Virus record (IMG/VR): IMGVR_UViG_3300025120_000026
Direction: 5' to 3' (one strand)
From: an uncultured virus (IMG/VR IMGVR_UViG_3300025120_000026)
Taxonomy: Duplodnaviria > Heunggongvirae > Uroviricota > Caudoviricetes
DNA length: 64,000 nucleotides
Both the position numbers and the translations under genes were made by a program. Of this stretch, positions 8,730 to 52,153 are shown piece by piece. The notes under the pieces were generated by a model. That model was not told the origin of the DNA. It made no database searches and saw only the letters and a program-made list of their open reading frames with translations. How positions within the stretch are numbered: position 1 is the first letter of the stretch; each line of letters begins with the position of its first letter.

Positions 8730-10405
8730 TGGTTGAAGAAAAAAGAAGATTTAGTTTTACTAATTTATTTAGAAATAGTACACCTAAACCATTAGACCGT
8801 AGTGTATACAATATAGGAATACAAGAAAAAGATACTTCTTATTTACTAACATCTCCAGTAATGTATCATATTGCTCAACAATCTATTATTGTTAGAACTT
8901 GCACTACTCAGTTAAAACAGGAAATATTTAGAAGAGGATATATATGGGAAGAAAAATTTGCCATGCGTTGTGATAGTTGTGGTAAAGAACATAAAATTCC
9001 TATTAAAGAATGTGGAGATTGTGGTGGAGTTGAGTTTTCAAAGCCTGACCCAAAACAATTAAAATATGCTAAAAATATGTTAGAAGGATATGTAAATAAA
9101 TCAGAACAAATGTTTATTGATGTTCTAAAAGAAATGGAAGATGACCTCAATATAATGGATGATGCTTATCTTGTTATGGTAAAAGAATATTATTTAGATA
9201 GTGATAATAATATAAAAATGCATAGAATCAAAGAAGTATATCGTGGCGACCCCATCGGAATGCATATTTATTCAGATGAAAAAGGAGAAAGAGGTAGTGC
9301 GGGCTTTACATGTTTAAGACATAGAAGTGTAATTAATGTAAGTCCTACTGGAATTTGTGAAGAATGTAATAGTAAACTTTACCCAGTGCATTTTGTTAAC
9401 AGAACAAATGGAGAAGAACAGTTTTTTATTAAGGGGGAAGTATTACATTTTAGTAAGTATTCTCCTAGTAGAATATATGGTTTGTCTCCAATAATTACTT
9501 TGTGGAATAACGTTACTACATTACTTGCTATGGAAAATTATGTTAATTCTTCTTATACTAAAGCAAGAATGCCTAAAGGTATTTTAGCCGTTCAAACTAG
9601 AAATATGGATTCTATGAAATCTTTTTGGAGAGGAGTAAAAGAGAAGATGGAGAAAGACCCTCATTTTATTCCAGTTATGGGAATTGAAGCGGAAGGTGGA
9701 AAAGGTTCTATTGAGTGGGTTAAATTTATGGATAGTCTAAAAGAAATGGATTATATGTCTGTAAAAGATGATTTAAGAGATAGAATATCTGCATTCTATG
9801 GAGTTAGTAAGATATTTATGGCAGATAGTTCTGCTAGTGGTGGATTAAATAATGATGGAATGCAAATACTTGTAACTAATCGTGCAGTTGAAATGGCACA
9901 AACTATTTGGAATAATTATGTGTTTCCTTTTATGACAAAAGAATTTGGTATTATAGATTGGCAATTAAAATTACCACCATCAGAAGAAGAGGATGAAATT
10001 GCTAAATTAAGAAAGAGAGAGATAGAAGTTAACGTAGCCGCATCAATTAAAAATTTAGGTTTTGAAGTAGATATGGATGATGAAGGTAGGTTTACGTTTT
10101 CAAAACCCCCACCTGAACCTAAACCTGAAGCAGAAGGACAAGAAGATGGGGATGCTCCAATAGAAACAGACCCTTATGCAGGTACAAATATTGATGCTAG
10201 TCAAATGGGACAAATGATGGAAGCGGGTAATCAACCACCACCATCTGCTGATGCTCCTAAAGCCGCACCTGTAAAAGCAGAAGAACCTCCAGCAACTAGA
10301 AATAAACCATCTATGAGTAGAGGGCCGGATAAAAGATTTAGTGGGTTACCAGCCGATGCGGGTAATCAAAACGTTGACAAAAGAACTGAAAGGAGAGTAG
10401 GATAA
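8729..10405 (+). CDS. Portal protein with Cys-rich insertions
   Basis: Position after terminase; HK97-like portal segments VLHF..YGLSPI, PKGIL and ISAFYGV; CxxC pairs; Pro/acidic C-terminal tail. Confidence 0.85.
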   Translation: MVEEKRRFSFTNLFRNSTPKPLDRSVYNIGIQEKDTSYLLTSPVMYHIAQQSIIVRTCTTQLKQEIFRRGYIWEEKFAMRCDSCGKEHKIPIKECGDCGGVEFSKPDPKQLKYAKNMLEGYVNKSEQMFIDVLKEMEDDLNIMDDAYLVMVKEYYLDSDNNIKMHRIKEVYRGDPIGMHIYSDEKGERGSAGFTCLRHRSVINVSPTGICEECNSKLYPVHFVNRTNGEEQFFIKGEVLHFSKYSPSRIYGLSPIITLWNNVTTLLAMENYVNSSYTKARMPKGILAVQTRNMDSMKSFWRGVKEKMEKDPHFIPVMGIEAEGGKGSIEWVKFMDSLKEMDYMSVKDDLRDRISAFYGVSKIFMADSSASGGLNNDGMQILVTNRAVEMAQTIWNNYVFPFMTKEFGIIDWQLKLPPSEEEDEIAKLRKREIEVNVAASIKNLGFEVDMDDEGRFTFSKPPPEPKPEAEGQEDGDAPIETDPYAGTNIDASQMGQMMEAGNQPPPSADAPKAAPVKAEEPPATRNKPSMSRGPDKRFSGLPADAGNQNVDKRTERRVG

Positions 10406-13900: not shown

Positions 13901-16522
13901 ATGCCACAGACAGGAATAAGTTTTGAAAAAGAAACTAGCGATTTATCTAAAAGAGTATTAGATTTTTTTGAAAGAGTTAGATATTCCTTTTTGTCCGCTA
14001 AGGAAAACCCCAAAGAATATGGGTCTAAATGGAAGTCAACAGTAGAAGAGATACAAGATACCTTCGATTCATTAGATGATTTTGCTAAAGAACTCAAAAA
14101 ATATTTAGAAGAAAAAGACGCTTTTGCTGATGATGCAAAAGACCCTACATCTACTACTGCACAAAGGATTTATGATAACATTAAAGAAATGAGATTTAAA
14201 TCTAAATCTGTTGATGACCCATTTTCTAAAATATTAGGAGATGAGGTTATTGAAGTCTTTTTAGAAAAAACAAATATATTAGTTGCTTTTATACACTATG
14301 CAATTCGTTCTCATAGTAATGCATTACCAAAAAAAGTATGGTTAGAAAATGATATGAAACCGGATGAAATAACTCAGGGTTCTATGGGATTAGATTTAGA
14401 AATAGATGATTTAGAATTATATATTAAAGAACATTATGGTGATGGTAAAGACACTAAGAGAATATCTAGTAAAATTAAAGGGGCAATTAATATTTTAGAA
14501 AACATGTTTGTAGAAAAATATGGTGAGGATAGGTGGGAAGATATAGAAGAAGTAGATGTTGGTTCTAGTCTTAAGAAGGCGGAAACCAAAAGTGAAGAAC
14601 AAAAATCTGCTATAGATTTTATAATTCCTAATAAGCCAATGTTTAGAATTTTTGAAATAGATGATTTAAAAGAAATACGTGGACTTAGTGGTGAGTTTAT
14701 CGTGCAAGAAAAGTATGATGGTATGAGAATACAAATACATAAAATAGATAATAATGTTAAAATTTACTCATATAATAAAATAGATATTACTGATAAATGT
14801 CCCGAACAAGTAGAGGAAATGAAAAAGAAACATTTTGGTGATTGTATATTAGATGCAGAACTTATGTTATTTTTAGAAGATGAACCATTACACAGAGCAG
14901 ATACTATTACTCATGTTTTTAAATTAAAAGATGAAAAGAAAAAAGGAATTTTAAGAGCGCATGTTTTTGACATAATGAAACATGAAGGTAAATCTATTAT
15001 GGAAGAATCCTTAAGAGAAAGAATTAATATTTTATTATATCAATACTCACAACATTCTTCAGAAATGTTAGCATTCCCATCTAAGAAAGATACTCGCATG
15101 GCTGATTCTATAAAGGAAGTAGAAGAATATTCTAAAGAAATTATGAAACTTCCTGCCTCAGAAGGAGTTGTAATAAAAGATATAGAATCAACGTATTATC
15201 GTGGTATATCACAAAACCCTAAATGGATTAAATGGAAAAAATTTGTAGACTTAGATGTTGTTGTTTTGAAAGATAGAAAAACATCTAGTGGCCTACATTC
15301 CTACACAATGGGTATCGGCCCTGTACCTGCTTCAGTAGTTAGAGAATATGAAACTGTAGAATTTGAAGATAAGGAATATTTAGAAGTAGGTAAAGCATTG
15401 AATACTAAAACTAATGTAAAAGTTGGAGGAATTATTAGAGTCAAGGTAGATGAAGTTAAAAAGAAAGGTAAATCTTTTAGTTTATATTCTGCTAAAGTAA
15501 TTGAAGTTCCTGAAGTTTTAGTTTCAGATACTTTAGAAACATTAGAACACTTAGCAACTAAAACTAAAAAATCTTTAGAATCTGCTTTAGATTTCTTAGG
15601 GGAGTCTGTATTAAGAACACCTTATAAAATTATGAGTGGTGTTGGTGAGAAACAAAATAATGTTAAGAAAGCATATTATGTTACAGATAATATACACGGT
15701 ACTGCTGAAATTATATTAAAAGAAGATTTAGATGGGTTTACAATTTACGGATTTGAAGGAGATAACTTAATGCAAAAGAATGCATTATATGATATTGACA
15801 TATGGAAAGAACAGTTGTCTGAGATAATTAAAACAAAAAGGTCAGATTTGAGAATAGGAATTAAAAATGAAATATTAGAATCAGGAAGACCTAAAGTAAA
15901 TTTTGAAAGTATAGTAGAGTTTGTTAAAGAACATTATCCTGAAACATACTTAGATGTATTTGATAATAAAGAAGATAAATTAATGAGTTGGATGAAAACT
16001 GAAGGAGATGTTAGTTTTATTTACCATCATCCAAATAAATTTAGTGTGCAAACAGATGAAGTTACTAAAGATGTAGAGACATTAAAAAAAGAAGATAGAA
16101 CAGGTAAATTTGTTATTAAACGTAGAGAAGATGAAAATATAGATTTTATTATAGAATATAAAGATAAAAGAAATGCGTGGACTATTGAAATAGATGATAC
16201 TGAAGATATATTTAATTTATTTGGTAAATCAGGGAAATATCCTGCTATTGTTTCAGAATCTTTAGGAGATGGAAAAACCTTAGATTCAGGTAGTATTACT
16301 CTTGGAGTACAAAAGCAAGGATATCATGAATATAAATTAGAAGGAGATAAGTTTGATACTAGAATTCATATTAGAGTTTTACCTATAGATGAAAAGAAAA
16401 CATGGCTTGCATGGACTGGTAAAAAACAAGATATGTTACCTTTAGATGAAGATGAAAATTTATGGGATATTACCAAAGATAAATATGCAGATTTAGAATT
16501 TCCAAAAGAAAATAGCACTTAA
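13901..16522 (+). CDS. lig: ATP-dependent DNA ligase with N-terminal extension and C-terminal degenerate LigD phosphoesterase-like domain
   Basis: Motif I QEKYDG, III ILDAEL, IIIa HVFDI, IV EGVVIK, V WIKWK, then an OB fold. Confidence 0.9.
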   Translation: MPQTGISFEKETSDLSKRVLDFFERVRYSFLSAKENPKEYGSKWKSTVEEIQDTFDSLDDFAKELKKYLEEKDAFADDAKDPTSTTAQRIYDNIKEMRFKSKSVDDPFSKILGDEVIEVFLEKTNILVAFIHYAIRSHSNALPKKVWLENDMKPDEITQGSMGLDLEIDDLELYIKEHYGDGKDTKRISSKIKGAINILENMFVEKYGEDRWEDIEEVDVGSSLKKAETKSEEQKSAIDFIIPNKPMFRIFEIDDLKEIRGLSGEFIVQEKYDGMRIQIHKIDNNVKIYSYNKIDITDKCPEQVEEMKKKHFGDCILDAELMLFLEDEPLHRADTITHVFKLKDEKKKGILRAHVFDIMKHEGKSIMEESLRERINILLYQYSQHSSEMLAFPSKKDTRMADSIKEVEEYSKEIMKLPASEGVVIKDIESTYYRGISQNPKWIKWKKFVDLDVVVLKDRKTSSGLHSYTMGIGPVPASVVREYETVEFEDKEYLEVGKALNTKTNVKVGGIIRVKVDEVKKKGKSFSLYSAKVIEVPEVLVSDTLETLEHLATKTKKSLESALDFLGESVLRTPYKIMSGVGEKQNNVKKAYYVTDNIHGTAEIILKEDLDGFTIYGFEGDNLMQKNALYDIDIWKEQLSEIIKTKRSDLRIGIKNEILESGRPKVNFESIVEFVKEHYPETYLDVFDNKEDKLMSWMKTEGDVSFIYHHPNKFSVQTDEVTKDVETLKKEDRTGKFVIKRREDENIDFIIEYKDKRNAWTIEIDDTEDIFNLFGKSGKYPAIVSESLGDGKTLDSGSITLGVQKQGYHEYKLEGDKFDTRIHIRVLPIDEKKTWLAWTGKKQDMLPLDEDENLWDITKDKYADLEFPKENST

Positions 16523-16547: not shown

Positions 16548-17768
16548 TTGTTTGTGCCAGCAATGCAGATGCTAATGAAAGAGGATAGTTCCTCCGGTAG
16601 TTTTAGCATTTTAAAATCAGATGATTTAGTAATTGGTGGATATGCTTCTATAGAAGTTGTAGACAAACAAAATGATTTAATTACTTTAGATGCATTAAAT
16701 GATGCAGTTGCTAAATATATGGTAGAAAAGAAATATAGAAATGTAATGTCAAACCATTCCAATGTTCAAGTTGGAGAAGTAATTGAAAATTATAGAGATA
16801 AAAATGGAACATTACATAAGACTCAAGTAGATAATGTTGGATTCTATGTAGTTATTAAATTACGAGATGATATAGAAAAGGCAAAAGAAATTTCAAGAGG
16901 TATTAGAAAAGGAACATTACGCTCCTTTAGTATTGGTGGACAAGCAATATCAAAGCGTAGTAAAAAATCAGATGAGTTAGGTCAATACAATGAAATTGAC
17001 AAGTTAGAGTTACATGAAGTAACTATATGTGAAAAAGGGATAAATCCCGAAGCAAGATTCGACATTTTAAAAATGGATAAAAATGGAGAAAAAGGAGGAA
17101 AAAAAATGAGTGATAAACTTGAAAAAGCCCTTGATGAACTAAACGACTTGATGAAACAAGTCAGTGATGTTCACAAGGAAGACGAAACGAAAGATGAAGA
17201 AACGAAAGGTGACATGAGTTACATGGATACAGACGATGAAGACCCTGAAAACCTAGAAAGGGGAGAAGATGAAATGGATGATGGAGAAGGTAAATCATTA
17301 GACATGGATTTACAACACTCTGAAGCAGGTGAAGAAGTAGTAAGTGGTGGAAACCCAGTTGCAACTCCAGCACCTCTTAAAGTATCTAAAGGATTAAAAG
17401 ATTCTGATTTTAGTACTCTAAACTTAACTCACGAAAACGTAGAGAAAGCATATGAAGCCTACAAAGCAGAAAAAATGGAAAAGATGGCATATGAGTCTCT
17501 AAGTACTGACTTTGAAGCAAGACTACAAAGTGAATTAGCAGTTAGGAAATCTAACGCAGAAAGAGAAGAATATGATGCTCTTGCTGAAGTAAATGCATTA
17601 AAGAATGAATTTGCAGAACTACGCAAATCATTAACTACACAGCACAATGAAGTACGCAAAGCACAAGAAGTTGCTATGTCACTACCTGAAGGATTCCCAA
17701 CAACATTATCAGCAGTAGCAGATATGTCTTGGGGAGATATACACACATTAGTTGGAAGGAGAGATTAA
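16548..17768 (+). CDS. Prohead protease (HK97/S78-like) fused to scaffold domain; exact start uncertain (16548/16554/16563)
   Basis: IGGYAS..VDKQND, catalytic-type His in SNHSN, Ser in RSFSIGG, LHEVTIC..GINPEA; acidic coiled-coil C-terminal half; directly upstream of the capsid gene. Confidence 0.9.
   Translation: MFVPAMQMLMKEDSSSGSFSILKSDDLVIGGYASIEVVDKQNDLITLDALNDAVAKYMVEKKYRNVMSNHSNVQVGEVIENYRDKNGTLHKTQVDNVGFYVVIKLRDDIEKAKEISRGIRKGTLRSFSIGGQAISKRSKKSDELGQYNEIDKLELHEVTICEKGINPEARFDILKMDKNGEKGGKKMSDKLEKALDELNDLMKQVSDVHKEDETKDEETKGDMSYMDTDDEDPENLERGEDEMDDGEGKSLDMDLQHSEAGEEVVSGGNPVATPAPLKVSKGLKDSDFSTLNLTHENVEKAYEAYKAEKMEKMAYESLSTDFEARLQSELAVRKSNAEREEYDALAEVNALKNEFAELRKSLTTQHNEVRKAQEVAMSLPEGFPTTLSAVADMSWGDIHTLVGRRD
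17106..17768 (+). CDS. Putative nested in-frame scaffold protein (220 aa, MSDKLEKALDEL...)
   Basis: Strong AAAGGAGG RBS 7 nt before the in-frame ATG 17106, just after the protease domain. Confidence 0.6.
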   Translation: MSDKLEKALDELNDLMKQVSDVHKEDETKDEETKGDMSYMDTDDEDPENLERGEDEMDDGEGKSLDMDLQHSEAGEEVVSGGNPVATPAPLKVSKGLKDSDFSTLNLTHENVEKAYEAYKAEKMEKMAYESLSTDFEARLQSELAVRKSNAEREEYDALAEVNALKNEFAELRKSLTTQHNEVRKAQEVAMSLPEGFPTTLSAVADMSWGDIHTLVGRRD

Positions 17769-17770
17769 GA

Positions 17771-19159
17771 ATGACATACATAAATACAATACGAGATTTG
17801 GAAGCAAGCACATATGGGATGGCCGGAGCATCAGGTAACGCACTACTAAAAAGTAGTGGAGTTGTTGGTGGTTTTGGTACTGCTCACGGAGCGGCTGATG
17901 TAGCATCATTAAACGGTAACTCACTCAACATTGGTGATTTATATAACGTTCTTTATGGACAAAAAGTTTGGTCAATGTTAAATCAAGAAGTTAACGCTTT
18001 GTCTATGATAGCAAAGAGGCCATACACATCTAGCGGTTGGAGAATATTAAAATCCCGACCTACTGGTGGTTCAGGTGCGGCTTTTGAAGTAGGCTCTACT
18101 GAGGTTGCAGAAAATGTTACTGATTTATCTACACCTAGAGCAGACCAAATTGGTGGAGTAGAAGAAAACGCAACATTAGGTGGAGCAAATGGATTCAGAG
18201 CATTGTCTCCTGAATACACTAAACTATTTACAAGCCCTAAAACAATAGCACATTTGTTTGAGTTCTCAGAACTTGGAATGGAAATGGCCGCTATTGATGA
18301 TGGTGTTGGAGATATACGTGCAATCGTTAGAGAAGATATGGGTAAGCATCACGCTGAAACTCAAAGTAAGATGTTACTAATGCCTCTAGAAAGATACAAT
18401 GATGGAACAGCACTTAACATGAACAGAAATTATACTTCTTTAATGAAGATAGTTTCTTCTGCCGCAGAAATTGCGGCTATGGCTAATGCTGATTTAACTG
18501 ATATGGGTGCGACAGGCAATTCTACTATGGCTGGATTAGACCATTTGATTAATTTATATGGTACAACTGCGGCTGATGGTAGAATAGTTACAGTTAGTGG
18601 TTCTACTTATTCAGCAGGGGCTTCATCTTTCATGGATGCTGAAGTTGACTTTGGTGCAAGTTATGCCGGAGGAAGGGTATTAACTCTAACATTGATAAAC
18701 GACATGCTAAGAAAGATACGCCAAAATGGTGGAAATCCAAAAGTTATGTTAACTGGATATGATACTATACAACATATTTCTGACTTATTACAAAGTCAAG
18801 AGAGATTTATGGATAGGAAAGAAATTGTTCCTACACATAACGGTGTTCGTGGAGTTAAGGGTTCAGAAGTTGGTTTCAGAGTTGCAACATACTATGACAT
18901 ACCAATCATTCCATCAAAGGATATGCCTAATACTGGAAAAGAAACTGCTAACCCACTAAGTGATATATTGTTCTTAGACACTGACCATTTGTGGCTAGCG
19001 GTTATGAAACCTACACAATACTTCGAGGATGGAATTTCAAACGGAAATCCATTCGGAGTTGGTAAACTTGGTAATCAAGGAATGTACCGTACTATGGGAG
19101 AGACATGTTGTTCTTTCTTCAAAGGTCAAGGTAAGATTACTAACTTGAAGAGTGCGTGA
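17771..19159 (+). CDS. Major capsid protein (HK97 fold inferred)
   Basis: Follows protease/scaffold; ~460 aa; GGAG RBS before ATG 17771 (track TTG 17729 unlikely); P-domain-like segments GGNPKVMLT and YYDIPIIPS. Confidence 0.85.
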   Translation: MTYINTIRDLEASTYGMAGASGNALLKSSGVVGGFGTAHGAADVASLNGNSLNIGDLYNVLYGQKVWSMLNQEVNALSMIAKRPYTSSGWRILKSRPTGGSGAAFEVGSTEVAENVTDLSTPRADQIGGVEENATLGGANGFRALSPEYTKLFTSPKTIAHLFEFSELGMEMAAIDDGVGDIRAIVREDMGKHHAETQSKMLLMPLERYNDGTALNMNRNYTSLMKIVSSAAEIAAMANADLTDMGATGNSTMAGLDHLINLYGTTAADGRIVTVSGSTYSAGASSFMDAEVDFGASYAGGRVLTLTLINDMLRKIRQNGGNPKVMLTGYDTIQHISDLLQSQERFMDRKEIVPTHNGVRGVKGSEVGFRVATYYDIPIIPSKDMPNTGKETANPLSDILFLDTDHLWLAVMKPTQYFEDGISNGNPFGVGKLGNQGMYRTMGETCCSFFKGQGKITNLKSA

Positions 19160-20311: not shown

Positions 20312-20734
20312 ATGCCTAGCATAGACACAGACACACGACTAATAATGACAATATTATTCGTAGGTTCAGTTAGTGGAGTTAACGTTTACTTCTATACTCA
20401 ATATGGAGTAGATTTTCCTTATGGAGGATATGCTCATGGAGTACTCTTTGGTATTGTAACGATTGGGGCTATTATGATTATGAAAGCGGCCTTTGATTTA
20501 ATGATACATGATATGATTGAAGATAGATTACTTCAACGTAATATTGATAGTTACTGGTATAGAAAGGCTAGAGATGAAGAGAATCGTAAGAGGGTTAGAG
20601 AATCTATGAGAAACTTTCAACAAACATTTAGCCCAACAAATGTTTATGGAGATAATAATTTACCTACATTTGGACAGGTTAATAAGGCCGAAGAACAAAC
20701 AGTTTCACCCTCATTTTTAACAGAGTTAAGGTAG
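20312..20734 (+). CDS. Two-TM membrane protein with charged cytoplasmic helix (140 aa)
   Basis: Hydrophobic segments LIMTILFVGSVSGVNVYFY and GVLFGIVTIGAIMIM. Confidence 0.75.
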   Translation: MPSIDTDTRLIMTILFVGSVSGVNVYFYTQYGVDFPYGGYAHGVLFGIVTIGAIMIMKAAFDLMIHDMIEDRLLQRNIDSYWYRKARDEENRKRVRESMRNFQQTFSPTNVYGDNNLPTFGQVNKAEEQTVSPSFLTELR

Positions 20735-20742
20735 GAATTTAA

Positions 20743-20967
20743 ATGGTCGGAGAAATCCTAATGGGTTTTGATGAGTCTACTATGGCTTATGATTTACAAA
20801 GAGCGCACTCCGCAGACATATGGTTTATACGAGCAAGATTTTGGTTATGGGGAATAATCTCTACTGTTACATCTTTTTGTGCAGGACACTTAGTTGCTCA
20901 TATGGGTTATAATATGTATGGGTGGCTTTGGGGAGGTATGGTAAACTTTTGGAATCATCTATGGTGA
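20743..20967 (+). CDS. Small Trp-rich membrane protein (74 aa)
   Basis: FWLWGIISTVTSFCAGHLVA TM segment plus amphipathic GWLWGGMVNFWNHLW. Confidence 0.7.
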   Translation: MVGEILMGFDESTMAYDLQRAHSADIWFIRARFWLWGIISTVTSFCAGHLVAHMGYNMYGWLWGGMVNFWNHLW

Positions 20968-20971
20968 TAGC

Positions 20972-21643
20972 ATGTCTGTAATGGCAGGGTTTGCTATTCT
21001 CTTAGTTGAGGGTATGAATAGAATCTATCAAAGATTACATTCTATTCCTTTTGGTGTATATGGTGCTAGTAAAGCAGGGAAGACAACATTACATCATCAA
21101 TTAAGAACTAGAGGAGAAGTACCAACAATAGTAGAACGAACTGTTGGTACTGAACGTGCTAGTAGAAAATATGTAAAATTAGATGGTGATGCTCATACAG
21201 TTAAAACTGCGGATATTGGGGGAGAAACAGTTTTTTGGGGTGAATGGATAGAAGACATGAAAAATAGACATGTTAGATATATAATATTCATGATAGATGA
21301 CAGACATATGGATAAACATTTTGACATTGAACAACAACTATGTTGGACTTTTTTAGTAGATTCAATTTGTGCTAATTCTTGGACTGTTAATGGAAAAAAC
21401 AAAAAAAAGAAATCTAATGACTATCCAATTGCAGTAGGAATGTGGGCTAATAAATATGATTTGTGGAAAGACAAATATGATTATGATGGCCCAATAGAAA
21501 AACATCCTATCTTTGAATCATTCAAAGTAGGAATGCAAAAACTAAACGACAAAGGAATACCATGTTTTAAATATATAGTAAGTGCTAAGTCAGATTCAGA
21601 AATGGTGTATAGAGGCATATTAACAATGATAAAAGATTACTAG
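20972..21643 (+). CDS. Ras-superfamily small GTPase, Arf/Sar-like
   Basis: G1 GASKAGKT, G2 RTVGT, G3 DIGG, G4 NKYD, G5 SAK; hydrophobic/amphipathic N-terminal helix. Confidence 0.9.
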   Translation: MSVMAGFAILLVEGMNRIYQRLHSIPFGVYGASKAGKTTLHHQLRTRGEVPTIVERTVGTERASRKYVKLDGDAHTVKTADIGGETVFWGEWIEDMKNRHVRYIIFMIDDRHMDKHFDIEQQLCWTFLVDSICANSWTVNGKNKKKKSNDYPIAVGMWANKYDLWKDKYDYDGPIEKHPIFESFKVGMQKLNDKGIPCFKYIVSAKSDSEMVYRGILTMIKDY

Positions 21644-21653
21644 GTGAAAAAAA

Positions 21654-22325
21654 ATGACAATGAATTACCAACCCCCCAACTTAATAGGAGCAACAACAAC
21701 GAACGTAGGAAATCCTTTTTTGGATAGATTTACTCAAGGTAGAGCCGCAGGTGCAGTAATGCTCTATGAGTATAAAAATATAAAACCAAAAAAACAACTT
21801 AAGGAGATAACAAAAATACTAAAACCTGAAAAGAAAACTTTCCTAAAACTACCATATAAATTCAAATATAACATGAAAGATAGATGTGTAGTTTGTGGAA
21901 CTCAAAAAGTTTGGGATGCTGGAGACAACATGAGGCCACCATTACCATTACATAAAGTAAGAAAGGGCTATCCAATGAGAGGAACTTATTGTGATAAACA
22001 TGCATCTATACATAGACAGTATGAGATGTTAGAACAACAAATACTAGCCGAAGAACATGGTTTAAGTTACAGTGCATATATACCTAAGATGCCTAACTTA
22101 AATCCATTAGCATCAGGGCCGTTAACTAGTCTTAAACAGATGGATATACAATCCTTATCTTCATTAGGATGGGTAGTTAAACCTCCTCAGTCAGGTAAAG
22201 AATCTAAAGAAGAAGAATTATTTAGATTAATTATAGAAAGTAATGCTAATAATGAAAGAGTCAAAACTTTATTAACTGAAGGTGCGAAGATAGAAGTGCA
22301 AGAGCAAGTGGGGGTCGAAGAATAA
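21654..22325 (+). CDS. Hypothetical zinc-finger protein (223 aa)
   Basis: CVVC ... YCDKH metal-binding pattern; AGGTGA RBS. Confidence 0.7.
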   Translation: MTMNYQPPNLIGATTTNVGNPFLDRFTQGRAAGAVMLYEYKNIKPKKQLKEITKILKPEKKTFLKLPYKFKYNMKDRCVVCGTQKVWDAGDNMRPPLPLHKVRKGYPMRGTYCDKHASIHRQYEMLEQQILAEEHGLSYSAYIPKMPNLNPLASGPLTSLKQMDIQSLSSLGWVVKPPQSGKESKEEELFRLIIESNANNERVKTLLTEGAKIEVQEQVGVEE

Positions 22326-23035
22326 TGGGAGTTTTTGGAACAAGTAATGGGCAAATAATGTCTTCTATAAGTGCTAATAATCAAAGTCAATTTAAAACAA
22401 TGAACAATTTATTAACTCTACAAGAAAATCATGTAGAAGATTTCTTTCAATATCATGGTGAAGCATTTTTAGCGGCATTAGATAAATTAATTGAAGATGC
22501 AGTATCAAGAAGTGTTAGTAAATTATTAACTCAATTAAAATTTAATACACAAAGTAGTGGAGAAATCACATTACATTCTGACGCAATGGCATCTTTGAAT
22601 ACTATTACAGAAGAAAATATTATTTTAGATTTACAAACTTTATTGGCTACGGCAGTAAATAGTGAAGTTGTTATGCAAAGAAGAATGGCTAAGCAACAAT
22701 ATCTAGAATCTCAAGGATTTTCTAGTCCTGCACAACAGGCAATGCCATCACAACCTGCATATGGAGGAGGAGTGCCAAATCAAATGGGTATGAATCCTGC
22801 AAATATCCAAGGAAGTAATATGGGTGTAGGTATGAACAATACTATGAATCAACAAATGAATGCTATGAATAATACTTCAGGATATCCTGTACCGCCAGCA
22901 GGTTATGACCAAATGAATAATGCTTACTGGATAGACCCCGCTACAGGACAGATGACATATACACCTCCGGCAAGTGGCTTAGGATTAGGAGCGGCTATAA
23001 CTAAAGGAGTCGCTTGGGCTAAGTGGTTGGCTTAA
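22325..23035 (+). CDS. Hypothetical protein with Q/N/M/G/P low-complexity region and C-terminal amphipathic helix
   Basis: Helical N-terminal half, NQMGMNP.. region, ends GLGAAITKGVAWAKWLA. Confidence 0.75.
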   Translation: MGVFGTSNGQIMSSISANNQSQFKTMNNLLTLQENHVEDFFQYHGEAFLAALDKLIEDAVSRSVSKLLTQLKFNTQSSGEITLHSDAMASLNTITEENIILDLQTLLATAVNSEVVMQRRMAKQQYLESQGFSSPAQQAMPSQPAYGGGVPNQMGMNPANIQGSNMGVGMNNTMNQQMNAMNNTSGYPVPPAGYDQMNNAYWIDPATGQMTYTPPASGLGLGAAITKGVAWAKWLA

Positions 23036-23048
23036 GCGAGGAAGTTAA

Positions 23049-25778
23049 ATGTTAAATTCAAATACTCAAATACTTAAGTCTGATAATATAACTATACCCT
23101 TCGATTTACTTACTTATTTAACAAAAAGTACTAACTTTACAAGTAATATTATTTTTAGCCCTAAATCAGTGAGTTCAGATGTTAGTCCTTTATTGGAGCA
23201 AAATCAAATGTTCAACTGGATGGCACTCTATTCTTTTAAAGATGTTAATGCTGACAGTAGTAAAAGTAAGATGTATGCTGATAATTATTTAATGGAGTTA
23301 TTAGTATTAGATAAAGATGATTTTGCTACATTTGTTAATAGTGGTACAGTAGAGAAAAAAACAAGTCCAACTATTTTAAATAAATATTTAGAAAGTTTTA
23401 ATGATAAAAGTTGGGATAATTATAAATTAGAATTCATAAAAAAAATTGCTGAAACTCCTATTCTAGATTTATTAACAAAATTAAGCGCAGAAACGGCTGG
23501 AAATCCTCTTAATATAAAAAATGGAATAAAAAGTTTTTTACCTGAGGATTTATATTATACTTTAACTGATTTACAAGAAACAATTAATCCTACATTAGAT
23601 GATTTAGATAATATAAAAACTAAAAGATTGTTAATAAATACAACGTGGAAAACTGGTAAAAATAACCTACCTGAAAAAAGAAGAGTTACAGATGCGGCTA
23701 TAGGTATGGGAGAAGGTACTGAACGTTATAATGTTCCTAACTTAACAGATATAAAAGGTAAAAACGAAGAGTATGATTTCATATCACAATTAACTACTCA
23801 ATCTCCAATTTTGTATGATTTAATTATGGATTTCATTACAGTTGACGAAAGTAAAATTGTAGACCCAACTGAATCTGCACCACCTGAACTGATAGATGCA
23901 GAAAGTAATTATATAGTTACTTTTAACAGTGCTAAATATTTTGAAGCATTAATGGATAGGTTTGGTTTTGGTACTCTCGATGATTCACAATTAACTATTA
24001 CAAAAACTAGTGATAAAACTATTAATGAAGCAAAAAAAGACAAAAACAAACCTAGCCAACAGGGGAGGCCATTAGTATATTTAGAATTATTACATAAACC
24101 TAACTCTGATAAGAAAAATGAATATTCTTGGACACATATTAAATTCGTTAACTTTAATGAAGAAAGAGAATTTTCAAGGAACGAATTAGATAAATTAATT
24201 TTATTAACAAAAGACATACCTGTAAATGCTAAAAATAAACTTAAAGAAGAATTAGAAAAAGTTTTAACTACTCAACAAGATAATTACTATGAATTTTCAG
24301 ATTTAATATTAGATTTAACAGTTCCCGCTTCTGAAGGTATTACAGTTGGTGAATCTGAATTCCAAATCAAATTTTTTGATATGATTGATGATGAAAATGA
24401 ACTACTAAATATATTAGATAGTTTAGAAAATCCTGAAAGATATGCTGATATAGACGAAAAGGGAGAAAAAACATACCCTGATTCACCACAGTTAGATAAT
24501 GAATATGAAAAAATAAATAAAAAAATAATACCACTTCGTAAACAGATAAAAGAATTTGAAGATTTAAAAGATTTTAAATTAGATTTTGAGACAACAGAAA
24601 AACATGAATATAATTTAATTGCAAAGACAGGTAGGGAAAATTCAGAAAGACCTAGTGGTGATATTAAGATTAAAAATGAAGATTTATTTCCTTCAATACA
24701 AATTTTATTAAATGATATTCCTGAAAAGTATAAAAAATTATTAGATACATATGATGTTAAAAACAACAACACAAATGATGAATTTAAAGCATTTTATAGT
24801 AAAGAATTTTTAAAAGAGTTTGAAGAGGCAATAGTAAGAAATTTACCTACAAAAAAGGTTGCACCTAACGAATGGATTGATGATGAAACATATGATTTTT
24901 CTATTAAAATAAAAAATAATAAAGTAAAAACTAAAATACCTACTATTTTATTTGAGTATACATTAAGTTCTAATTATGATTTAAAGCCACTTGATTTATT
25001 TAAAAATATTATTGATAGTAAAAATGCTAAAGAGATGCGTTCTCAATTAGAAAGTACATTAAAAGATTTAAATTTATATATAGAAGAAATACCATCAATA
25101 AAAAAATATGAAAAAAATAAAGACCAATTAAAAATGTTAATTACAAAATTTAAAAAGATAGGTGGTAAAGATGGAAAAAGTTTTTCAGACAAATACATGT
25201 TATATGATGTACTAAACACATTAGAATCTAATCCTAAAAATCCTACTGAAGATATTAAACGAACAAAAGATGTGTTAATAGGTGCAAAAACTTCAGGAAA
25301 ACTTAGTAACTTAACAAATCAAACTGTATTCTCATTTATGGAAAAAACAGATTCTATGGATGTAACAGAAAAATATGATTATTTTAGAAGGATGGCATTT
25401 GATAAAAATTATCTAAAAGATAAAGGCCAAAAAAGTTCTTCTAGTCGATTAAGAACATCAAGAGATGAGTCTGAAACATTTATGGCAGGAGATGCTAGAA
25501 GAAGAGGAAAATCTATTTTGCCTCTTATAGAAGAAGTTAAACACACCTTTACTGCTTCACATAAAATAAGTCCTAGAACAACAGGGATTTCATATGCAAA
25601 TACTAAAGGCACAGGTCTTGTAAGAAAACCAAATGATAAAGAAGTATCAAGAAAACGTGGATACATATCTACTGTCATATCAGAGGATAAAAAACCAAGT
25701 AAAAAAAGTTTAGTTATAGAAAAAATAATAAATAGAATACAATCCAATTTTAAATATATGAAACAAAGAAGTACGTGA
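23049..25778 (+). CDS. Large hypothetical protein (909 aa)
   Basis: Long K/E/D/N-rich ORF; no motif recognised. Confidence 0.75.
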   Translation: MLNSNTQILKSDNITIPFDLLTYLTKSTNFTSNIIFSPKSVSSDVSPLLEQNQMFNWMALYSFKDVNADSSKSKMYADNYLMELLVLDKDDFATFVNSGTVEKKTSPTILNKYLESFNDKSWDNYKLEFIKKIAETPILDLLTKLSAETAGNPLNIKNGIKSFLPEDLYYTLTDLQETINPTLDDLDNIKTKRLLINTTWKTGKNNLPEKRRVTDAAIGMGEGTERYNVPNLTDIKGKNEEYDFISQLTTQSPILYDLIMDFITVDESKIVDPTESAPPELIDAESNYIVTFNSAKYFEALMDRFGFGTLDDSQLTITKTSDKTINEAKKDKNKPSQQGRPLVYLELLHKPNSDKKNEYSWTHIKFVNFNEEREFSRNELDKLILLTKDIPVNAKNKLKEELEKVLTTQQDNYYEFSDLILDLTVPASEGITVGESEFQIKFFDMIDDENELLNILDSLENPERYADIDEKGEKTYPDSPQLDNEYEKINKKIIPLRKQIKEFEDLKDFKLDFETTEKHEYNLIAKTGRENSERPSGDIKIKNEDLFPSIQILLNDIPEKYKKLLDTYDVKNNNTNDEFKAFYSKEFLKEFEEAIVRNLPTKKVAPNEWIDDETYDFSIKIKNNKVKTKIPTILFEYTLSSNYDLKPLDLFKNIIDSKNAKEMRSQLESTLKDLNLYIEEIPSIKKYEKNKDQLKMLITKFKKIGGKDGKSFSDKYMLYDVLNTLESNPKNPTEDIKRTKDVLIGAKTSGKLSNLTNQTVFSFMEKTDSMDVTEKYDYFRRMAFDKNYLKDKGQKSSSSRLRTSRDESETFMAGDARRRGKSILPLIEEVKHTFTASHKISPRTTGISYANTKGTGLVRKPNDKEVSRKRGYISTVISEDKKPSKKSLVIEKIINRIQSNFKYMKQRST

Positions 25779-27651: not shown

Positions 27652-29460
27652 ATGACAAGTAATGAAGCATTTGTAGGCGCAGGACAATCGGTAACATTCA
27701 TACCTGAAGCCAATATTTATTTGAAAGATTGTGCTAATAATAATAGTTCCACTATTAATTCTTGGGATGGTGATGTAGTTCTCATTCCTAAATTATATAT
27801 TGGTTGTGTGGCAAAAGTAGAATTAACAGATGAAACCTTAGTTGGATACTTTACCATAGCAGATAATACTCAAACTAGTTTAATATTCAATGAAATTATA
27901 CAAACTGGTAACACCTTAACTTTAGATGTTACAATTTTAGCCTATGGTGCGCCAACTCCTTCATTAGTTACTTCTTCTGACAATACTGCTGATGGTGGTG
28001 CTATTGCTACTGTTACAATTTCAGATGGAGGTGCAAGTGGCTCTCCCGACACCTATACTAATGTTAAATTAGAAGGTACAAAAATGGGTACGGGTGCAAT
28101 TGCTACTATAACAGTAAGTAGTAGTGGTGCTATTAATGGTGTAACTATTACAACAGGTGGAGATGGATATGTATCGGGAGAAACATTACTATTAGGTAGT
28201 GCAGTATCAGGTGTGCCAACTTTAACTAGTGCTGGTACTGGTGCTGATGGTATACTTTTAGTAAACGCTATTGAAACTGATGGAACAACTTTACTAAGTG
28301 ATAGTTGGTTAGGATTAATTAATACATTTAGTCCTCCTAGTGTAGAAGTAACTCTCAATCAAATGAACTTAGCATTAGGTAATACTCGTAACTTTACTCA
28401 TCAATATAAAGGTGCAGAAACAGTTAGTGGTGCTTCTTTAGATATAAATATGAATAATGGTTCTTGGTTATACTATGCATTAGGAGGTATATCAGTTATA
28501 GAAGACGGAACTGCTTCCACTGTTGCACTTACAGATGCATTGAGTACTACTGCTACAGAATTAACATATATTAACGAAAGTACTGGTGAAATGGTTAGAA
28601 CAGTAAAAGGTGGCAGTACTAGTATAACTTCAATTTCATGTCCTCCGGTTAAAACTCCTGCTAATTTTGTAAAAAGAAATAGTGGCATTTTAACTTATAC
28701 ATTTACAGAATTAAATGGAGATTCACTTCCTTCTTTTGCTATAGATATGTCTCATGAGAAAGTATCTTCCGGTGGAAAAATAGATGCTTTAACGCCTACA
28801 GAAAATATGTGGGCTAAAGTAGCAACAGGATGTCAAGTTAATAGTCTAACCATGAATTTTAATGAGGGAGAAGAATTAAAATGTAATGTAGATTTAGTTA
28901 GTAAAACTTTATTTGATGCTCCAGCAGGTTATTTTCCTCAAAGAAATATTGATGCAGTAAGTAACTTACATAACTTTAGTTCTACTAAAGAAGATAATTA
29001 TCCATTTATGTATTCTGATGGTGGAATAAAAATATTTGGTCAAACATTTGCAAGAATAAAATCAGGTTCATTGGCTATAGCAAATAATTTAACTCCGCAT
29101 AGATATATTGGTAATTATGACCGTAGGAGTATTAGTCACCATAGTCCTGCACAGCGAACATATGATTTAAATTTTACAATGTTAATTACTGATACCCAAA
29201 TTTGGGATGAGTTAAGAGGCACAGATGAATTTGACCCAACTGGTGCATCTAATGGTGGAATTATTGAATTGAATTTTACTAAGGGAGTTGGTGCAACATT
29301 GTCTAGTATTGGATTAAAGTTTTCTGATTATATTATAGACTCAGTTAGTGTGCCTTTCCCTGATGATAAATCAGCATTAGAAGTAGAAGTTACTATGAAA
29401 GCAAGAACATTAACCGAATGTAAATATTCCGGTAAGTGGGAAATAATTAATACAAAATAA
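27652..29460 (+). CDS. Major tail tube protein with inserted G/T/S-rich beta domain
   Basis: LPSFAI..ATGCQVNSLTM and GSLAIANNL..RTYDLNFT tube-like motifs; followed by chaperone and tape measure; no sheath gene. Confidence 0.75.
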   Translation: MTSNEAFVGAGQSVTFIPEANIYLKDCANNNSSTINSWDGDVVLIPKLYIGCVAKVELTDETLVGYFTIADNTQTSLIFNEIIQTGNTLTLDVTILAYGAPTPSLVTSSDNTADGGAIATVTISDGGASGSPDTYTNVKLEGTKMGTGAIATITVSSSGAINGVTITTGGDGYVSGETLLLGSAVSGVPTLTSAGTGADGILLVNAIETDGTTLLSDSWLGLINTFSPPSVEVTLNQMNLALGNTRNFTHQYKGAETVSGASLDINMNNGSWLYYALGGISVIEDGTASTVALTDALSTTATELTYINESTGEMVRTVKGGSTSITSISCPPVKTPANFVKRNSGILTYTFTELNGDSLPSFAIDMSHEKVSSGGKIDALTPTENMWAKVATGCQVNSLTMNFNEGEELKCNVDLVSKTLFDAPAGYFPQRNIDAVSNLHNFSSTKEDNYPFMYSDGGIKIFGQTFARIKSGSLAIANNLTPHRYIGNYDRRSISHHSPAQRTYDLNFTMLITDTQIWDELRGTDEFDPTGASNGGIIELNFTKGVGATLSSIGLKFSDYIIDSVSVPFPDDKSALEVEVTMKARTLTECKYSGKWEIINTK

Positions 29461-52151: not shown

Positions 52152-52153
52152 AT

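What the first reader, a model, noticed from the sequence alone, without database searches (positions are those of the whole stretch)
20312..23035. Five-gene Arf/Sar-like small GTPase and membrane-protein module in the late region of an archaeal tailed virus
Seen: a 223-aa GTPase with all five G boxes (GASKAGKT, RTVGT, DIGG, NKYD, SAK) and an N-terminal hydrophobic helix (MSVMAGFAILLVEGMNRIYQRL). It lies in a tightly spaced run with a 2-TM protein, a Trp-rich 74-aa membrane protein, a CxxC/CxxH zinc-finger protein and a low-complexity protein ending in an amphipathic helix. Established: DxGG in G3 plus an N-terminal membrane-inserting helix characterise Arf/Sar1 GTPases, which recruit coats and bend membranes. 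Tailed-virus head/tail modules do not normally contain such genes. Inference: no holin or endolysin is recognisable in the window, so this may be a GTP-switched membrane-remodelling system for egress, lysis timing or membrane-anchored assembly. G3 is followed by E rather than the catalytic Q/H, so a neighbour may act as GAP or GEF.
Basis: partly seen in the sequence, partly recalled or inferred. Interest (0 to 1): 0.88.

Follow-up and report, generated by a model that had tools for sequence, protein, structure and literature searches.

The report
Magrovirus small-GTPase membrane gene cassette
A tailed virus of abundant ocean archaea carries a strongly conserved five-gene block built around its own small GTP switch and small membrane proteins; it is undescribed and untested, and is a candidate for how such viruses act on, or break out through, the host membrane.

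Summary
Five tightly spaced + strand genes (20312-23035) encode a 2-TM protein, a Trp-rich 74-aa protein, a 223-aa small GTPase with all five G boxes and an N-terminal hydrophobic helix, a Cys/His protein and a Gln/Asn/Met-rich protein. All five follow the capsid gene in 46 of 46 capsid-selected loci that had enough downstream DNA. The GTPase is the most conserved gene of the region (median 81% identity against 70% for the capsid protein).

The same core order recurs in three further virus lineages whose GTPase is only about 28-32% identical. There it lies about 8 kb upstream of the terminase, so it is a portable module and not a head-tail part. The GTPase resembles the Arf/SR-beta/G-alpha group but passes no Pfam threshold, so Arf membership is not established. 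The partner proteins match no family or fold.

The function is inferred only: a cytoplasmic-face membrane GTP switch made late, with egress or lysis the leading guess (about 0.35). The nearest tested analogue is the archaeal vesicle system ArvA/B/C, and ArvC-type domains are absent here. This scan has reported the same cassette many times on other DNA. My ArfGAP idea and a complex prediction gave nothing.

The parts
20312..20734 (+). TM140: 140-aa protein with two hydrophobic segments (about aa 10-28 and 38-66) and a conserved Arg/Lys/Glu-rich tail (aa ~67-100). Probable topology is N-in/C-in.
   Evidence: ORF. Kyte-Doolittle windows >=1.6. Alignment A7 has 32 invariant columns in 16 sequences. 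Found in 79 of 80 loci. Weak profile link to the 2-TM protein of the distant cassette (hhalign probability 32%, E 4.9e-4).
20743..20967 (+). W74: 74-aa Trp-rich protein. The N-terminal 33 residues are nearly invariant, followed by a hydrophobic stretch and a Trp-rich end. It is a probable single-pass or interfacial membrane protein.
   Evidence: ORF. Alignment A10. Found in 80 of 80 loci. KD maximum 1.37, below the TM threshold. No profile link to the small TM protein at the same place in distant cassettes (probability 1%).
20972..21643 (+). Small GTPase, 223 aa. N-terminal hydrophobic helix aa 2-22 (nt 20975-21037). P-loop aa 31-38 (21062-21085). G2 Thr57 (21140-21142). G3 DIGG aa 81-84 (21212-21223). 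G4 NKYD aa 160-163 (21449-21460). G5 SAK aa 204-206 (21581-21589).
   Evidence: Median 81% identity in 80 loci and dN/dS 0.03-0.075 against 6 loci.
21654..22325 (+). Zn223: soluble Cys/His protein. The conserved core is aa 46-137 (nt 21789-22064), with C78, C81, C113, H116 and H120, followed by a long helix aa 114-135 and an acidic tail.
   Evidence: Homologous to the 290-360-aa protein that follows the GTPase in distant cassettes (hhalign 96.7%, E 3.3e-10). Model pLDDT 65.9. No family or fold match.
22325..23035 (+). LC236: N-terminal MGVFG motif, conserved helical core aa 36-131 (nt 22430-22717), variable Gln/Asn/Met/Gly-rich middle, conserved Pro/Tyr-rich segment and hydrophobic end (aa ~185-236).
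   Evidence: Alignment A12. The core is homologous to the Gln/Met/Gly-rich protein of distant cassettes (hhalign 95.3%, E 2.1e-8). No family hit. The protein atlas gave nothing.

Best explanation
Shown: this is a virus-specific, portable gene cassette of magrovirus-like tailed viruses. Its core order is a 2-TM protein, a small hydrophobic protein, a small GTPase with an N-terminal hydrophobic helix, a Cys/His protein, and a Gln/Asn/Met-rich protein with a hydrophobic end. The GTPase keeps every nucleotide-binding motif and is under the strongest purifying selection in the region, so it is very probably an active GTP-binding switch. The cassette always lies on the strand of the morphogenesis genes.

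Inferred: the GTP-bound GTPase docks by its N-terminal helix on the cytoplasmic face of the host membrane, beside the two viral membrane proteins. Their conserved cytoplasmic parts (the charged tail of TM140 and the N-terminus of W74) would act as its receptors or regulators. The GTPase would then recruit the Cys/His protein, as regulator or effector, and the Gln/Asn-rich protein as a scaffold that touches the membrane with both ends. Late in infection this assembly would deform or breach the membrane so that virions can leave. That would be a GTP-timed egress device in a host without a murein wall. The egress step is the least supported part.
For: Cassette in this lineage:
- All five genes were found in 74-80 of 80 GTPase-selected loci; the misses lie at contig ends.
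- All five were found in 46 of 46 capsid-selected loci with at least 4.2 kb downstream. These came from the 80 loci kept of 599 or more capsid matches.

Same core order in three other lineages (GTPase 28-34% identical across 16 aligned group-2 sequences):
- Group 2: complete by a positional heuristic in 68 of 80 loci.
- Group 3: 4 of 4 loci have the GTPase, the Cys/His protein and the 2-TM protein.
- Group 4: 5 of 5 loci examined, out of 11 found.

Homology between lineages: Cys/His protein 96.7%, Gln-rich protein 95.3%.

Location: on the morphogenesis strand but at different places. In the window it follows the capsid gene. In group 2 it is about 8 kb upstream of the terminase and about 23 kb from the capsid gene.

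GTPase:
- G1-G4 residues are invariant in 35 of 35 sequences.
- Median identity is 81% (n=80) against 70% for the capsid protein (n=75). dN/dS is 0.03-0.075.
- The fold is that of a small GTPase. The top structural neighbours are Arf1, Asgard ArfR, Arl3 and Arf6 at Z 13.1-13.2.

Membrane link: two KD-predicted TM segments in TM140 and a hydrophobic N-terminal helix on the GTPase.

No recognisable lysis gene in 50 window ORFs.

Literature (passages read):
- The egress machinery of archaeal tailed viruses is uncharacterised, and holins have not been identified (PMC10791045).
- An Arf-like GTPase with an N-terminal amphipathic helix, ArvA, drives vesicle formation in Haloferax together with a Zn-ribbon protein (PMC10927574).

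RNA library: contigs of one marine metatranscriptome library match parts of the capsid gene, TM140, W74-GTPase and LC236. DNA carry-over is not excluded.
Against: - No experiment and no family assignment ties any of the four partner proteins to lysis, vesiculation or GTPase regulation.
- W74 is not a predicted TM protein by the threshold used.
- The N-terminal helix of the GTPase is hydrophobic rather than clearly amphipathic in distant relatives (moment 0.13-0.42). A nucleotide-switched release is therefore not implied.
- The residue after DxGG varies (E, Q or D). This leaves the hydrolysis mechanism open.
- ArvC (OapC, PF09845) is not detected in the virus record or in 0 of 35 Cys/His proteins. 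The ArvABC parallel is therefore an analogy only.
- Very high conservation of a cytoplasmic GTPase fits an interaction with a conserved host factor of any kind, not specifically egress.
- Late timing is inferred from gene order and strand, not measured.
Confidence: 0.35

Rival explanations
1. ArvA-like vesiculation or internal membrane remodelling rather than lysis. The GTPase and its partners would bud or reshape host membrane, for example to make vesicles, decoys or a membrane platform for assembly or replication, without being the release device.
For: The nearest experimentally tested archaeal analogue is ArvA/B/C. It has an Arf-like GTPase with an N-terminal amphipathic helix and a Zn-ribbon partner, and it controls extracellular vesicle output (PMC10927574, passages). 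The viral cassette likewise pairs a GTPase with a Cys/His protein in all four lineages. Arf-family structures top the structural second look.
Against: No OapC domain and no other Pfam family were detected in the partners. A direct comparison with ArvA could not be run. Tailed virions have no envelope, so the benefit of vesicles is unclear.
Confidence: 0.2
2. Host take-over or exclusion at the membrane. The complex would block cell division, transport or signalling, or would exclude superinfecting viruses, by engaging a conserved host membrane or cytoskeletal factor.
For: The GTPase is more conserved than the capsid protein, as expected if it must fit a conserved host partner. The cassette is portable between genome positions like an accessory module. 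It is virus-specific: only 2 loci were found in 185,579 species genomes, both in one MAG that also carries the viral capsid gene.
Against: The cassette is universal in the lineage (46 of 46) and lies on the morphogenesis strand. That is more typical of a core late function than of an accessory one. There is no match to known defence or exclusion families (0 of 11 proteins).
Confidence: 0.15
3. Virion-associated or assembly accessory proteins. Examples would be ejection or channel proteins carried in the particle, or a membrane-anchored assembly or packaging platform.
For: In the window the block lies between the capsid genes and the neck and tail genes and is tightly packed with them. Hydrophobic ejection proteins are known in tailed phages (general knowledge, not tested here).
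Against: In group 2 genomes the block is about 23 kb from the capsid gene and upstream of the terminase. The capsid-to-tail-tube interval there does not hold the cassette. None of the five cassette proteins matched a head, connector or tail PHROG at E <= 1. A small GTPase is not a known virion part.
Confidence: 0.1

Closest known systems
Arf-family small GTPases (eukaryotic Arf, Arl, Sar1; Asgard ArfR, PDB 8OUN/8OUM)
   Same: Small-GTPase fold with a DxGG G3 motif, a Trp-containing switch II region and an N-terminal helix of about 20 residues before strand 1. Among solved structures, the best sequence-profile hit is GerdArfR1 (8oun_A, E 0.015; identity of the entry from bioRxiv 10.1101/2024.02.28.582541, passages). 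Arf1, ArfR, Arl3, Arf6, Arl1 and Arl8b head the structural second look at Z 12.8-13.2.
   Different: Pfam Arf scores 17.2 bits against a cut-off of 22.3. There is no myristoylation-type N-terminus. The catalytic Gln position holds E, Q or D. There is an insertion with a Lys-rich loop (aa ~134-150) and family-specific invariant residues W92, D95, R99, D109 and R111. The interswitch toggle could not be tested. Structural scores tie with G-alpha, Rag and Rab within about 1 Z.
ArvA/ArvB/ArvC (OapABC) vesiculation system of Euryarchaeota
   Same: It is an archaeal-world system in which an Arf-like GTPase with an N-terminal amphipathic helix sits in an operon with a zinc protein and acts on the cell membrane (PMC10927574, passages). 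It is the only tested prokaryotic example of this logic that I found.
   Different: ArvB (DUF2073) and ArvC (DUF2072/OapC) domains were not detected in any cassette protein. ArvABC has no membrane-protein genes, whereas the viral cassette has two or three. ArvA was not among the 83 proteins reached by the viral profile at E <= 0.001, as far as can be told without names.
SR-beta (signal recognition particle receptor beta subunit)
   Same: It gives the best Pfam score for the window's GTPase (22.2 bits, E 1e-4) and for 17 of 35 family members at E <= 0.01. It is an Arf-related GTPase held on the membrane by an N-terminal hydrophobic segment.
   Different: The score is below the cut-off of 25 bits. 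No SR-alpha-like partner was found. The viral N-terminal helix does not reach a TM hydropathy threshold.
Phage holin-based lysis cassettes
   Same: A small 2-TM protein with a charged cytoplasmic tail in a compact, portable late cassette. Its position varies between related genomes. In group 2 it lies upstream of the terminase, as the lambda lysis genes do (the lambda layout is recalled, not tested).
   Different: There is no holin or endolysin family match and no adjacent wall-degrading enzyme. Known lysis cassettes contain no GTPase. A putative holin-endolysin pair has been proposed for a different order of Poseidoniales viruses (PMC11706807, passages).
Ras/Rab/Ran GTPases of giant eukaryotic viruses
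   Same: They are virus-encoded small GTPases, and they fill the top 50 structural matches among predicted viral proteins.
   Different: Those are close copies of host trafficking GTPases in viruses of eukaryotes. This one is a divergent, virus-specific family in a tailed virus of archaea, and it has dedicated membrane partners.

Membership tests
Ras-superfamily small GTPase | G1 P-loop GxxxxGK[ST], G2 Thr, G3 DxxG, G4 NKxD | tested here: met
   G31, G36, K37, T38, T57, D81, G84, N160, K161 and D163 are invariant in 35 of 35 sequences.
Ras-superfamily small GTPase | G5 SAK-type motif | tested here: met
   SAK in 19 of 19 close sequences. Distant ones have A/S-T/A/S-K/Q.
Ras-superfamily small GTPase | Small-GTPase fold | tested here: met
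   Model pLDDT 67.3, pTM 0.68. Foldseek returned at least 500 PDB matches at E <= 0.001, the best E 2.4e-7. VIA gave Z >= 8 for 999 of 1000 chains.
Arf family (Arf/Arl/Sar1/ArfR) | Pfam PF00025 at or above its gathering score | tested here: not met
   17.2 bits against a cut-off of 22.3 for the window. 16 of 35 family members match at E <= 0.01, the best E 2.6e-4. More distant relatives such as P0181 (36.5 bits) and P0170 (57.2 bits) do pass.
Arf family (Arf/Arl/Sar1/ArfR) | N-terminal amphipathic helix that mediates membrane binding | tested here: inconclusive
   Helix 2-22 in the model. The hydrophobic moment is 0.33-0.51 in the window but 0.13-0.42 in distant relatives, with mean hydrophobicity 0.34-0.52.
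Arf family (Arf/Arl/Sar1/ArfR) | Interswitch toggle coupling nucleotide state to helix release | not testable with these tools
   This needs GDP- and GTP-state structures or liposome assays. The feature is as defined in bioRxiv 10.1101/2024.02.28.582541 (passages).
Arf family (Arf/Arl/Sar1/ArfR) | Catalytic Gln after DxGG | tested here: not met
   Glu in the window. E10/Q9 in close sequences and Q10/E3/D3 in distant ones. That Gln is the catalytic residue is recalled.
Arf family (Arf/Arl/Sar1/ArfR) | Arf structures are the nearest structural neighbours | tested here: inconclusive
   Arf, Arl and ArfR take 10 of the top 11 rows (Z 12.8-13.2). G-alpha (12.8), Sar1 (12.6), Rag (12.5) and Rab (12.4) lie within about 1 Z.
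SR-beta | Pfam PF09439 at or above its gathering score | tested here: not met
   22.2 bits against a cut-off of 25.
ArvABC (OapABC) system | ArvC Zn-ribbon domain (OapC, PF09845) near the GTPase | tested here: not met
   0 matches in the virus record G001, while the control rang in Haloferax volcanii. 0 of 35 Cys/His proteins list it at E <= 1.
ArvABC (OapABC) system | ArvB (DUF2073) directly downstream of the GTPase | tested here: not met
   No Pfam family was found for the downstream proteins at E <= 1. The domain name comes from PMC10927574.
ArvABC (OapABC) system | The GTPase groups with ArvA in sequence | not tested
   No ArvA sequence could be fetched.
Holin-endolysin lysis cassette | Small TM protein with a charged C-terminal tail | tested here: met
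   TM140 has two hydrophobic segments and an Arg/Lys/Glu-rich tail. This feature is not specific.
Holin-endolysin lysis cassette | Match to a holin or endolysin family, or an adjacent wall-degrading enzyme | tested here: not met
   No lysis-category PHROG or Pfam lysis family in 50 window ORFs.
ArfGAP zinc-finger domain (for Zn223) | Cys4 finger with fixed short spacing and a conserved Arg finger just after the last ligand (recalled definition) | tested here: not met
   The spacing is 31 residues and the fourth ligand is His. R121 is Lys in one close relative and absent in the distant lineage.
ArfGAP zinc-finger domain (for Zn223) | ArfGAP fold | tested here: inconclusive
   The model has pLDDT 65.9. 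There was no Foldseek match at E <= 0.001, and the best VIA Z was 4.5 to unrelated helical proteins.

The most novel reading that the evidence does not exclude
The cassette is the long-sought egress machine of archaeal tailed viruses. In this reading it is a GTP-timed membrane-breaching or vesiculating complex run by a virus-owned Arf-like switch. It would be mechanistically unlike holin-endolysin lysis and unlike the pyramids of crenarchaeal viruses, and it would show that small-GTPase-driven membrane remodelling exists in prokaryotic viruses.
Probability: 0.3. Interest if true: 0.9.

Novelty: new variant of a known kind. Interest (0 to 1): 0.7.

Why it matters
Marine Group II archaea and their viruses are among the most abundant entities in the surface ocean. 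A 2024 review states that the release machinery of archaeal head-tailed viruses is completely uncharacterised (PMC10791045). This cassette offers five defined, strongly conserved genes, universal in this virus lineage, that can be expressed and assayed without a culture of the host.

It would also be a rare case of a small GTPase with dedicated membrane partners in a virus of prokaryotes. All top-50 structural matches among predicted viral proteins came from giant viruses of eukaryotes. That bears on how widely Arf-like membrane switches exist outside eukaryotes and Asgard archaea.

If the cassette turns out to be something else, such as host take-over, it is still a core, undescribed function. 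RefSeq labels the homologue in Poseidoniales virus YSH_150918 a hypothetical protein.

Tried and rejected
1. ArfGAP idea (my own, from a recalled motif). Zn223 has CxxCG...W and C-x2-H-x3-HR, which recalled the ArfGAP finger with its arginine. The Arg is not conserved in the distant lineage and the ligand spacing differs. The profile search of solved structures gave only a chance hit at E 0.84. Foldseek and VIA-wide found nothing above Z 4.5. I dropped the idea.

2. Complex prediction of the GTPase (23-223) with Zn223 (20-145), each as a 35-row alignment: no verdict, score 0.00. It says nothing either way.

3. Protein atlas for Zn223 and LC236: no usable hit and no model held.

4. NCBIfam: only the generic small_GTP domain, below its cut-off. 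PADLOC: 0 of 11 proteins.

5. tblastn of the GTPase against 50,697 GenBank phage records: no match.

6. Fused or longer forms of the GTPase: none at E <= 0.001 among 731 candidates, which is weak evidence.

7. W74 against the small TM protein of distant cassettes: hhalign probability 1%. Only the position and size agree.

8. tblastn of 36 other window proteins against 84 distant-cassette loci: no hit at E <= 1e-4. The neighbours are not shared.

9. Viral-contig scans with P0129 and P0181 found nothing. An alignment query had no stretch conserved enough to search with.

10. Direct comparison with ArvA: not possible. No archaeal genome handle was available.

11. RNA evidence: only one metatranscriptome run, holding 0.11 of the sampled words. 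Its contigs cover parts of the capsid and cassette genes at 85-99% likeness. This is presence in an RNA library, not proof of transcription, and stretches without cover mean nothing.

12. Literature:
- No paper holds both 'magrovirus' and 'GTPase'.
- 'magrovirus' with 'GTP' found two papers. In the one listed and read, GTP refers to GTP cyclohydrolase.
- 'virus-encoded' with 'Arf-like', 'archaea' and 'GTPase' gave 0 papers.
- The two magrovirus papers and the Poseidoniales virus paper have no GTP, NTPase or P-loop term in the main text.
- The two held supplement files of PMC5434244 have none either.
- Gene tables in the supplements of the other papers were not examined and may carry automatic labels.


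Full report
**What the window is.**
The 64-kb window has about 28-38% G+C. One long + strand block holds a large terminase (5951-7387), a portal (8729-10405), an ATP-dependent DNA ligase (13901-16522), a prohead protease (16548-17768), a major capsid protein (17729-19159), a tail tube (27652-29460), a tape-measure-like gene and very large distal tail genes. A - strand block holds replication genes, including a B-family polymerase in two ORFs.

A 62%-identical homologue of the GTPase is 'hypothetical protein QKV95_gp088' of Poseidoniales virus YSH_150918. The window is therefore a magrovirus-like tailed virus. The host was not tested here. The nearest held record (G001) is 86,154 bases and estimated 92% complete.

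**The observation.**
Their properties are:

- **TM140** has two Kyte-Doolittle segments above 1.6 and a conserved charged tail.
- **W74** has a nearly invariant 33-residue N-terminus and a Trp-rich hydrophobic remainder. That remainder stays below the TM threshold, with a maximum of 1.37.
- **The GTPase** has all five G boxes and a helix at residues 2-22 in the model.
- **Zn223** has invariant C78, C81, C113, H116 and H120 in 19 close sequences.
- **LC236** is low-complexity only in its middle. Its MGxFG start, helical core, Pro/Tyr-rich segment and last seven residues are invariant or nearly so. Its end is hydrophobic, not amphipathic.

**Co-conservation in this lineage.**
Of 126 viral contigs encoding a relative of the GTPase, the best 80 were fetched. 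The counts by tblastn were:

| Gene | Loci with a hit (of 80) |
|---|---|
| TM140 | 79 |
| W74 | 80 |
| GTPase | 80 |
| Zn223 | 80 |
| LC236 | 74 |
| Capsid gene upstream | 76 |

The misses are at contig ends. One locus (L012) has Zn223 in three pieces.

In the reverse direction I took 80 capsid-selected loci, out of 599 or more matches. Of these, 46 had at least 4.2 kb downstream, and all 46 carried all five genes.

The GTPase is the most conserved gene of the neighbourhood. Median identities were 81% for the GTPase (n=80), 70% for the capsid protein (n=75), 74% for Zn223, and 62-65% for the other three.

Pairwise dN/dS against six chosen loci was as follows:

| Gene | dN/dS |
|---|---|
| GTPase | 0.03-0.075 |
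| TM140 | 0.055-0.11 |
| Zn223 | 0.10-0.15 |
| W74 | 0.10-0.22 |
| LC236 | 0.09-0.30 |
| Capsid protein | 0.14-0.23 (4 of 6 computable) |

dS is saturated in three of the six comparisons, so these are rough figures.

**The family beyond this lineage.**
A profile of 28 close homologues was scored against 1.84 billion representative proteins. It reached only 83 proteins at E <= 0.001, mostly fragments plus a few full-length relatives of 220-280 aa. This is a small, isolated family.

- **Group 2.** P0133 led to 80 more viral loci. The GTPases of 16 aligned group-2 sequences are 28-34% identical to the window's. They sit in the order: 2-TM protein (145-200 aa), small TM protein (73-99 aa), GTPase (~240 aa), a 290-360-aa protein, a 190-227-aa Gln/Met/Gly-rich protein starting MG[LF]FG or similar, and a further ~80-aa 2-TM protein. 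The order is complete by a positional heuristic in 68 of 80 loci.
- **Homology to the window's genes.** The 290-360-aa protein is homologous to Zn223 (hhalign 96.7%, E 3.3e-10). The Gln-rich protein is homologous to LC236 (95.3%, E 2.1e-8). The 2-TM proteins are only weakly linked (32%). The small proteins are not linked at all (1%).
- **Group 3.** From P0131, 4 loci show the same order, with HMM links to both groups.
- **Group 4.** From P0129, 11 metagenome loci were found and I examined the five with the most flank. All five show the same order, with one extra 256-260-aa gene before the GTPase and a trailing 2-TM gene.

**The block is portable.**
Group 2 genomes are related viruses. Their terminase is 38% identical, capsid segments are 39-52% identical, and the polymerase is unsplit. 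In a 118-kb record estimated complete, the GTPase lies at about 15.8 kb, the terminase at 24.2 kb, the capsid gene at 39.1 kb and the tail tube at 45.6 kb, all on one strand. A 101-kb record shows the same order mirrored.

None of 36 other window proteins has a tblastn match within 6 kb of the distant cassettes. Their neighbours there are a GP88-family protein, a methyltransferase and HTH or zinc-ribbon proteins. The cassette is therefore an autonomous module. It keeps the orientation of the morphogenesis genes but not a place among head, neck and tail genes. This argues against a structural role and is compatible with late expression, which was not measured.

**What kind of GTPase it is.**
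- **Pfam.** Sub-threshold hits for the window: SR-beta 22.2 bits (cut-off 25), MMR_HSR1 20.2 (21.9) and Arf 17.2 (22.3). Among 35 family members at E <= 0.01, 17 match SR-beta, 16 Arf, 13 Roc and 13 MMR_HSR1.
- **Bridge to Arf.** More remote relatives found by the profile pass the Arf threshold, for example P0170 at 57.2 bits and P0181 at 36.5 bits. The family thus connects to Arf-like proteins through intermediates.
- **Solved structures.** The best sequence-profile hit is 8oun_A at E 0.015. That entry is the Asgard ArfR protein GerdArfR1 with GDP.
- **Model.** The model has pLDDT 67.3, and the switch regions are poorly predicted. Foldseek ranks Rab and G-alpha first.
- **Structural second look.** VIA ranks Arf1, GerdArfR1, Arl3 and Arf6 first at Z 13.1-13.2. 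G-alpha-i (12.8), Sar1 (12.6), Rag (12.5), a mimivirus Rab (12.4) and KRas (11.7) are close behind.

I conclude that it works like, and probably derives from, the Arf/SR-beta/G-alpha branch. Membership of the Arf family is not shown. One sequence criterion, the Gln after DxGG, is not met in the window and varies in the family.

JGI's pipeline already labels several homologues 'GTPase SAR1 family protein'.

**The partners.**
No Pfam, PHROG, NCBIfam or PADLOC family fits TM140, W74, Zn223 or LC236.

Zn223 was modelled from a 35-row alignment spanning two lineages (pLDDT 65.9). It shows a small beta region around the Cys/His site and a long helix. Nothing matched it in Foldseek or in a search of 48,161 representative chains, where the best Z was 4.5. 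My ArfGAP idea failed on conservation.

Only C78, G82, G105, C113 and H116 of the Zn223 core are invariant across lineages.

**Specificity to viruses.**
A pattern scan of one genome for each of 185,579 prokaryote species found two loci. Both are in one MAG labelled Maricaulis sp., and both carry the capsid gene and the full cassette. They are most simply mis-binned viral contigs. No fused longer form was found.

**Literature.**
- A 2024 review says the players of egress in archaeal head-tailed viruses are uncharacterised and holins have not been identified. It also points to the small GTPase OapA in vesicle formation (PMC10791045, passages).
- The primary paper shows that ArvA (OapA), an Arf-like GTPase with a predicted N-terminal amphipathic helix, is needed for extracellular vesicles in Haloferax volcanii. 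ArvB (DUF2073, SepF-like) promotes vesicle production, and the Zn-ribbon protein ArvC (DUF2072) restrains it (PMC10927574, passages).
- This is the closest tested analogue in logic. The OapC domain is nevertheless absent from the virus record and from 35 of 35 Cys/His proteins.
- A 2025 paper proposes a holin-endolysin pair for a different order of Poseidoniales viruses and does not mention a GTPase (PMC11706807, passages).
- No searchable paper combines magroviruses with a GTPase.

**Earlier notes of this scan.**
The same cassette has been reported many times on other DNA: 90 findings in at least 74 genomes hold the words 'magrovirus GTPase cassette'. One such report was later marked 'part of it fell', without saying which part. 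I treated these notes as leads.

Here I re-tested co-conservation, portability, the six-gene form and the identity of 8OUN. I added the following:
- the reverse, capsid-anchored test;
- profile links for the Cys/His and Gln-rich proteins;
- two further lineages;
- the genome-map positions;
- the selection figures;
- the ArvABC comparison with a negative OapC test;
- the failed ArfGAP and complex tests.

**Reading.**
The evidence shows a core, virus-owned GTP switch with membrane-associated partners, facing the cytoplasmic side of the membrane. What it does is inferred. My estimates are:

| Reading | Estimate |
|---|---|
| Release of virions by GTP-controlled membrane breaching or deformation | about 0.35 |
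| ArvA-like vesiculation or internal membrane remodelling | 0.2 |
| Host take-over or exclusion | 0.15 |
| Virion or assembly role | 0.1 |
| Unassigned | the rest |

Noticed in passing
window 13901-16522 (+): An 873-aa protein with an ATP-dependent DNA ligase domain (Pfam E 1.3e-27) sits inside the morphogenesis block, between the portal-side genes and the prohead protease.
   Followed up: no
window 60728-61660 and 62125-63765 (-): The B-family DNA polymerase is in two ORFs (310 and 546 aa) with a 464-nt gap between them. Related group 2 viruses have one unsplit frame of about 775-790 aa.
   Followed up: partly
window 23049-25778 (+): The 909-aa Lys/Glu/Asn-rich protein right after the cassette is hypervariable. 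tblastn finds it in only 3 of 80 related loci, at 23-28% identity, while its neighbours on both sides are conserved. The ORF at this place ranges from about 430 to 1330 aa.
   Followed up: partly
window 7398-8729 (+): A 443-aa ORF between the terminase and the portal carries an HNH-endonuclease-like stretch (phrog_5046, E 2.1e-5).
   Followed up: no
window 50313-52873 (+): Three consecutive paralogues with a concanavalin-A-like lectin/glucanase domain (Laminin_G_3, E about 1e-12 to 1e-13) follow two giant ORFs of 2327 and 2588 aa. They are probably receptor-binding tail parts.
   Followed up: no
L161 and L162 (genome contigs NZMJ01000101.1 and NZMJ01000024.1): A MAG labelled Maricaulis sp. holds two contigs with the magrovirus capsid gene and the full cassette. 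This is probably viral contamination of a bacterial bin.
   Followed up: partly
G004:C1:69882-70187 and G005:C1:39745-40275: The capsid-gene matches in two group 2 virus records contain in-frame TGA codons (3 and 1). This could mean frameshifts, alignment across frames, or recoding.
   Followed up: no
L085 9941-10789 (+): A group 2 virus carries an HMGL-like (pyruvate carboxyltransferase-type) gene about 2 kb downstream of its cassette. It may be an auxiliary metabolic gene.
   Followed up: no
L242 5229-5999 and L251 5217-5999 (+): In group 4 cassettes an extra 256-260-aa gene of no known family lies between the small TM gene and the GTPase.
   Followed up: no
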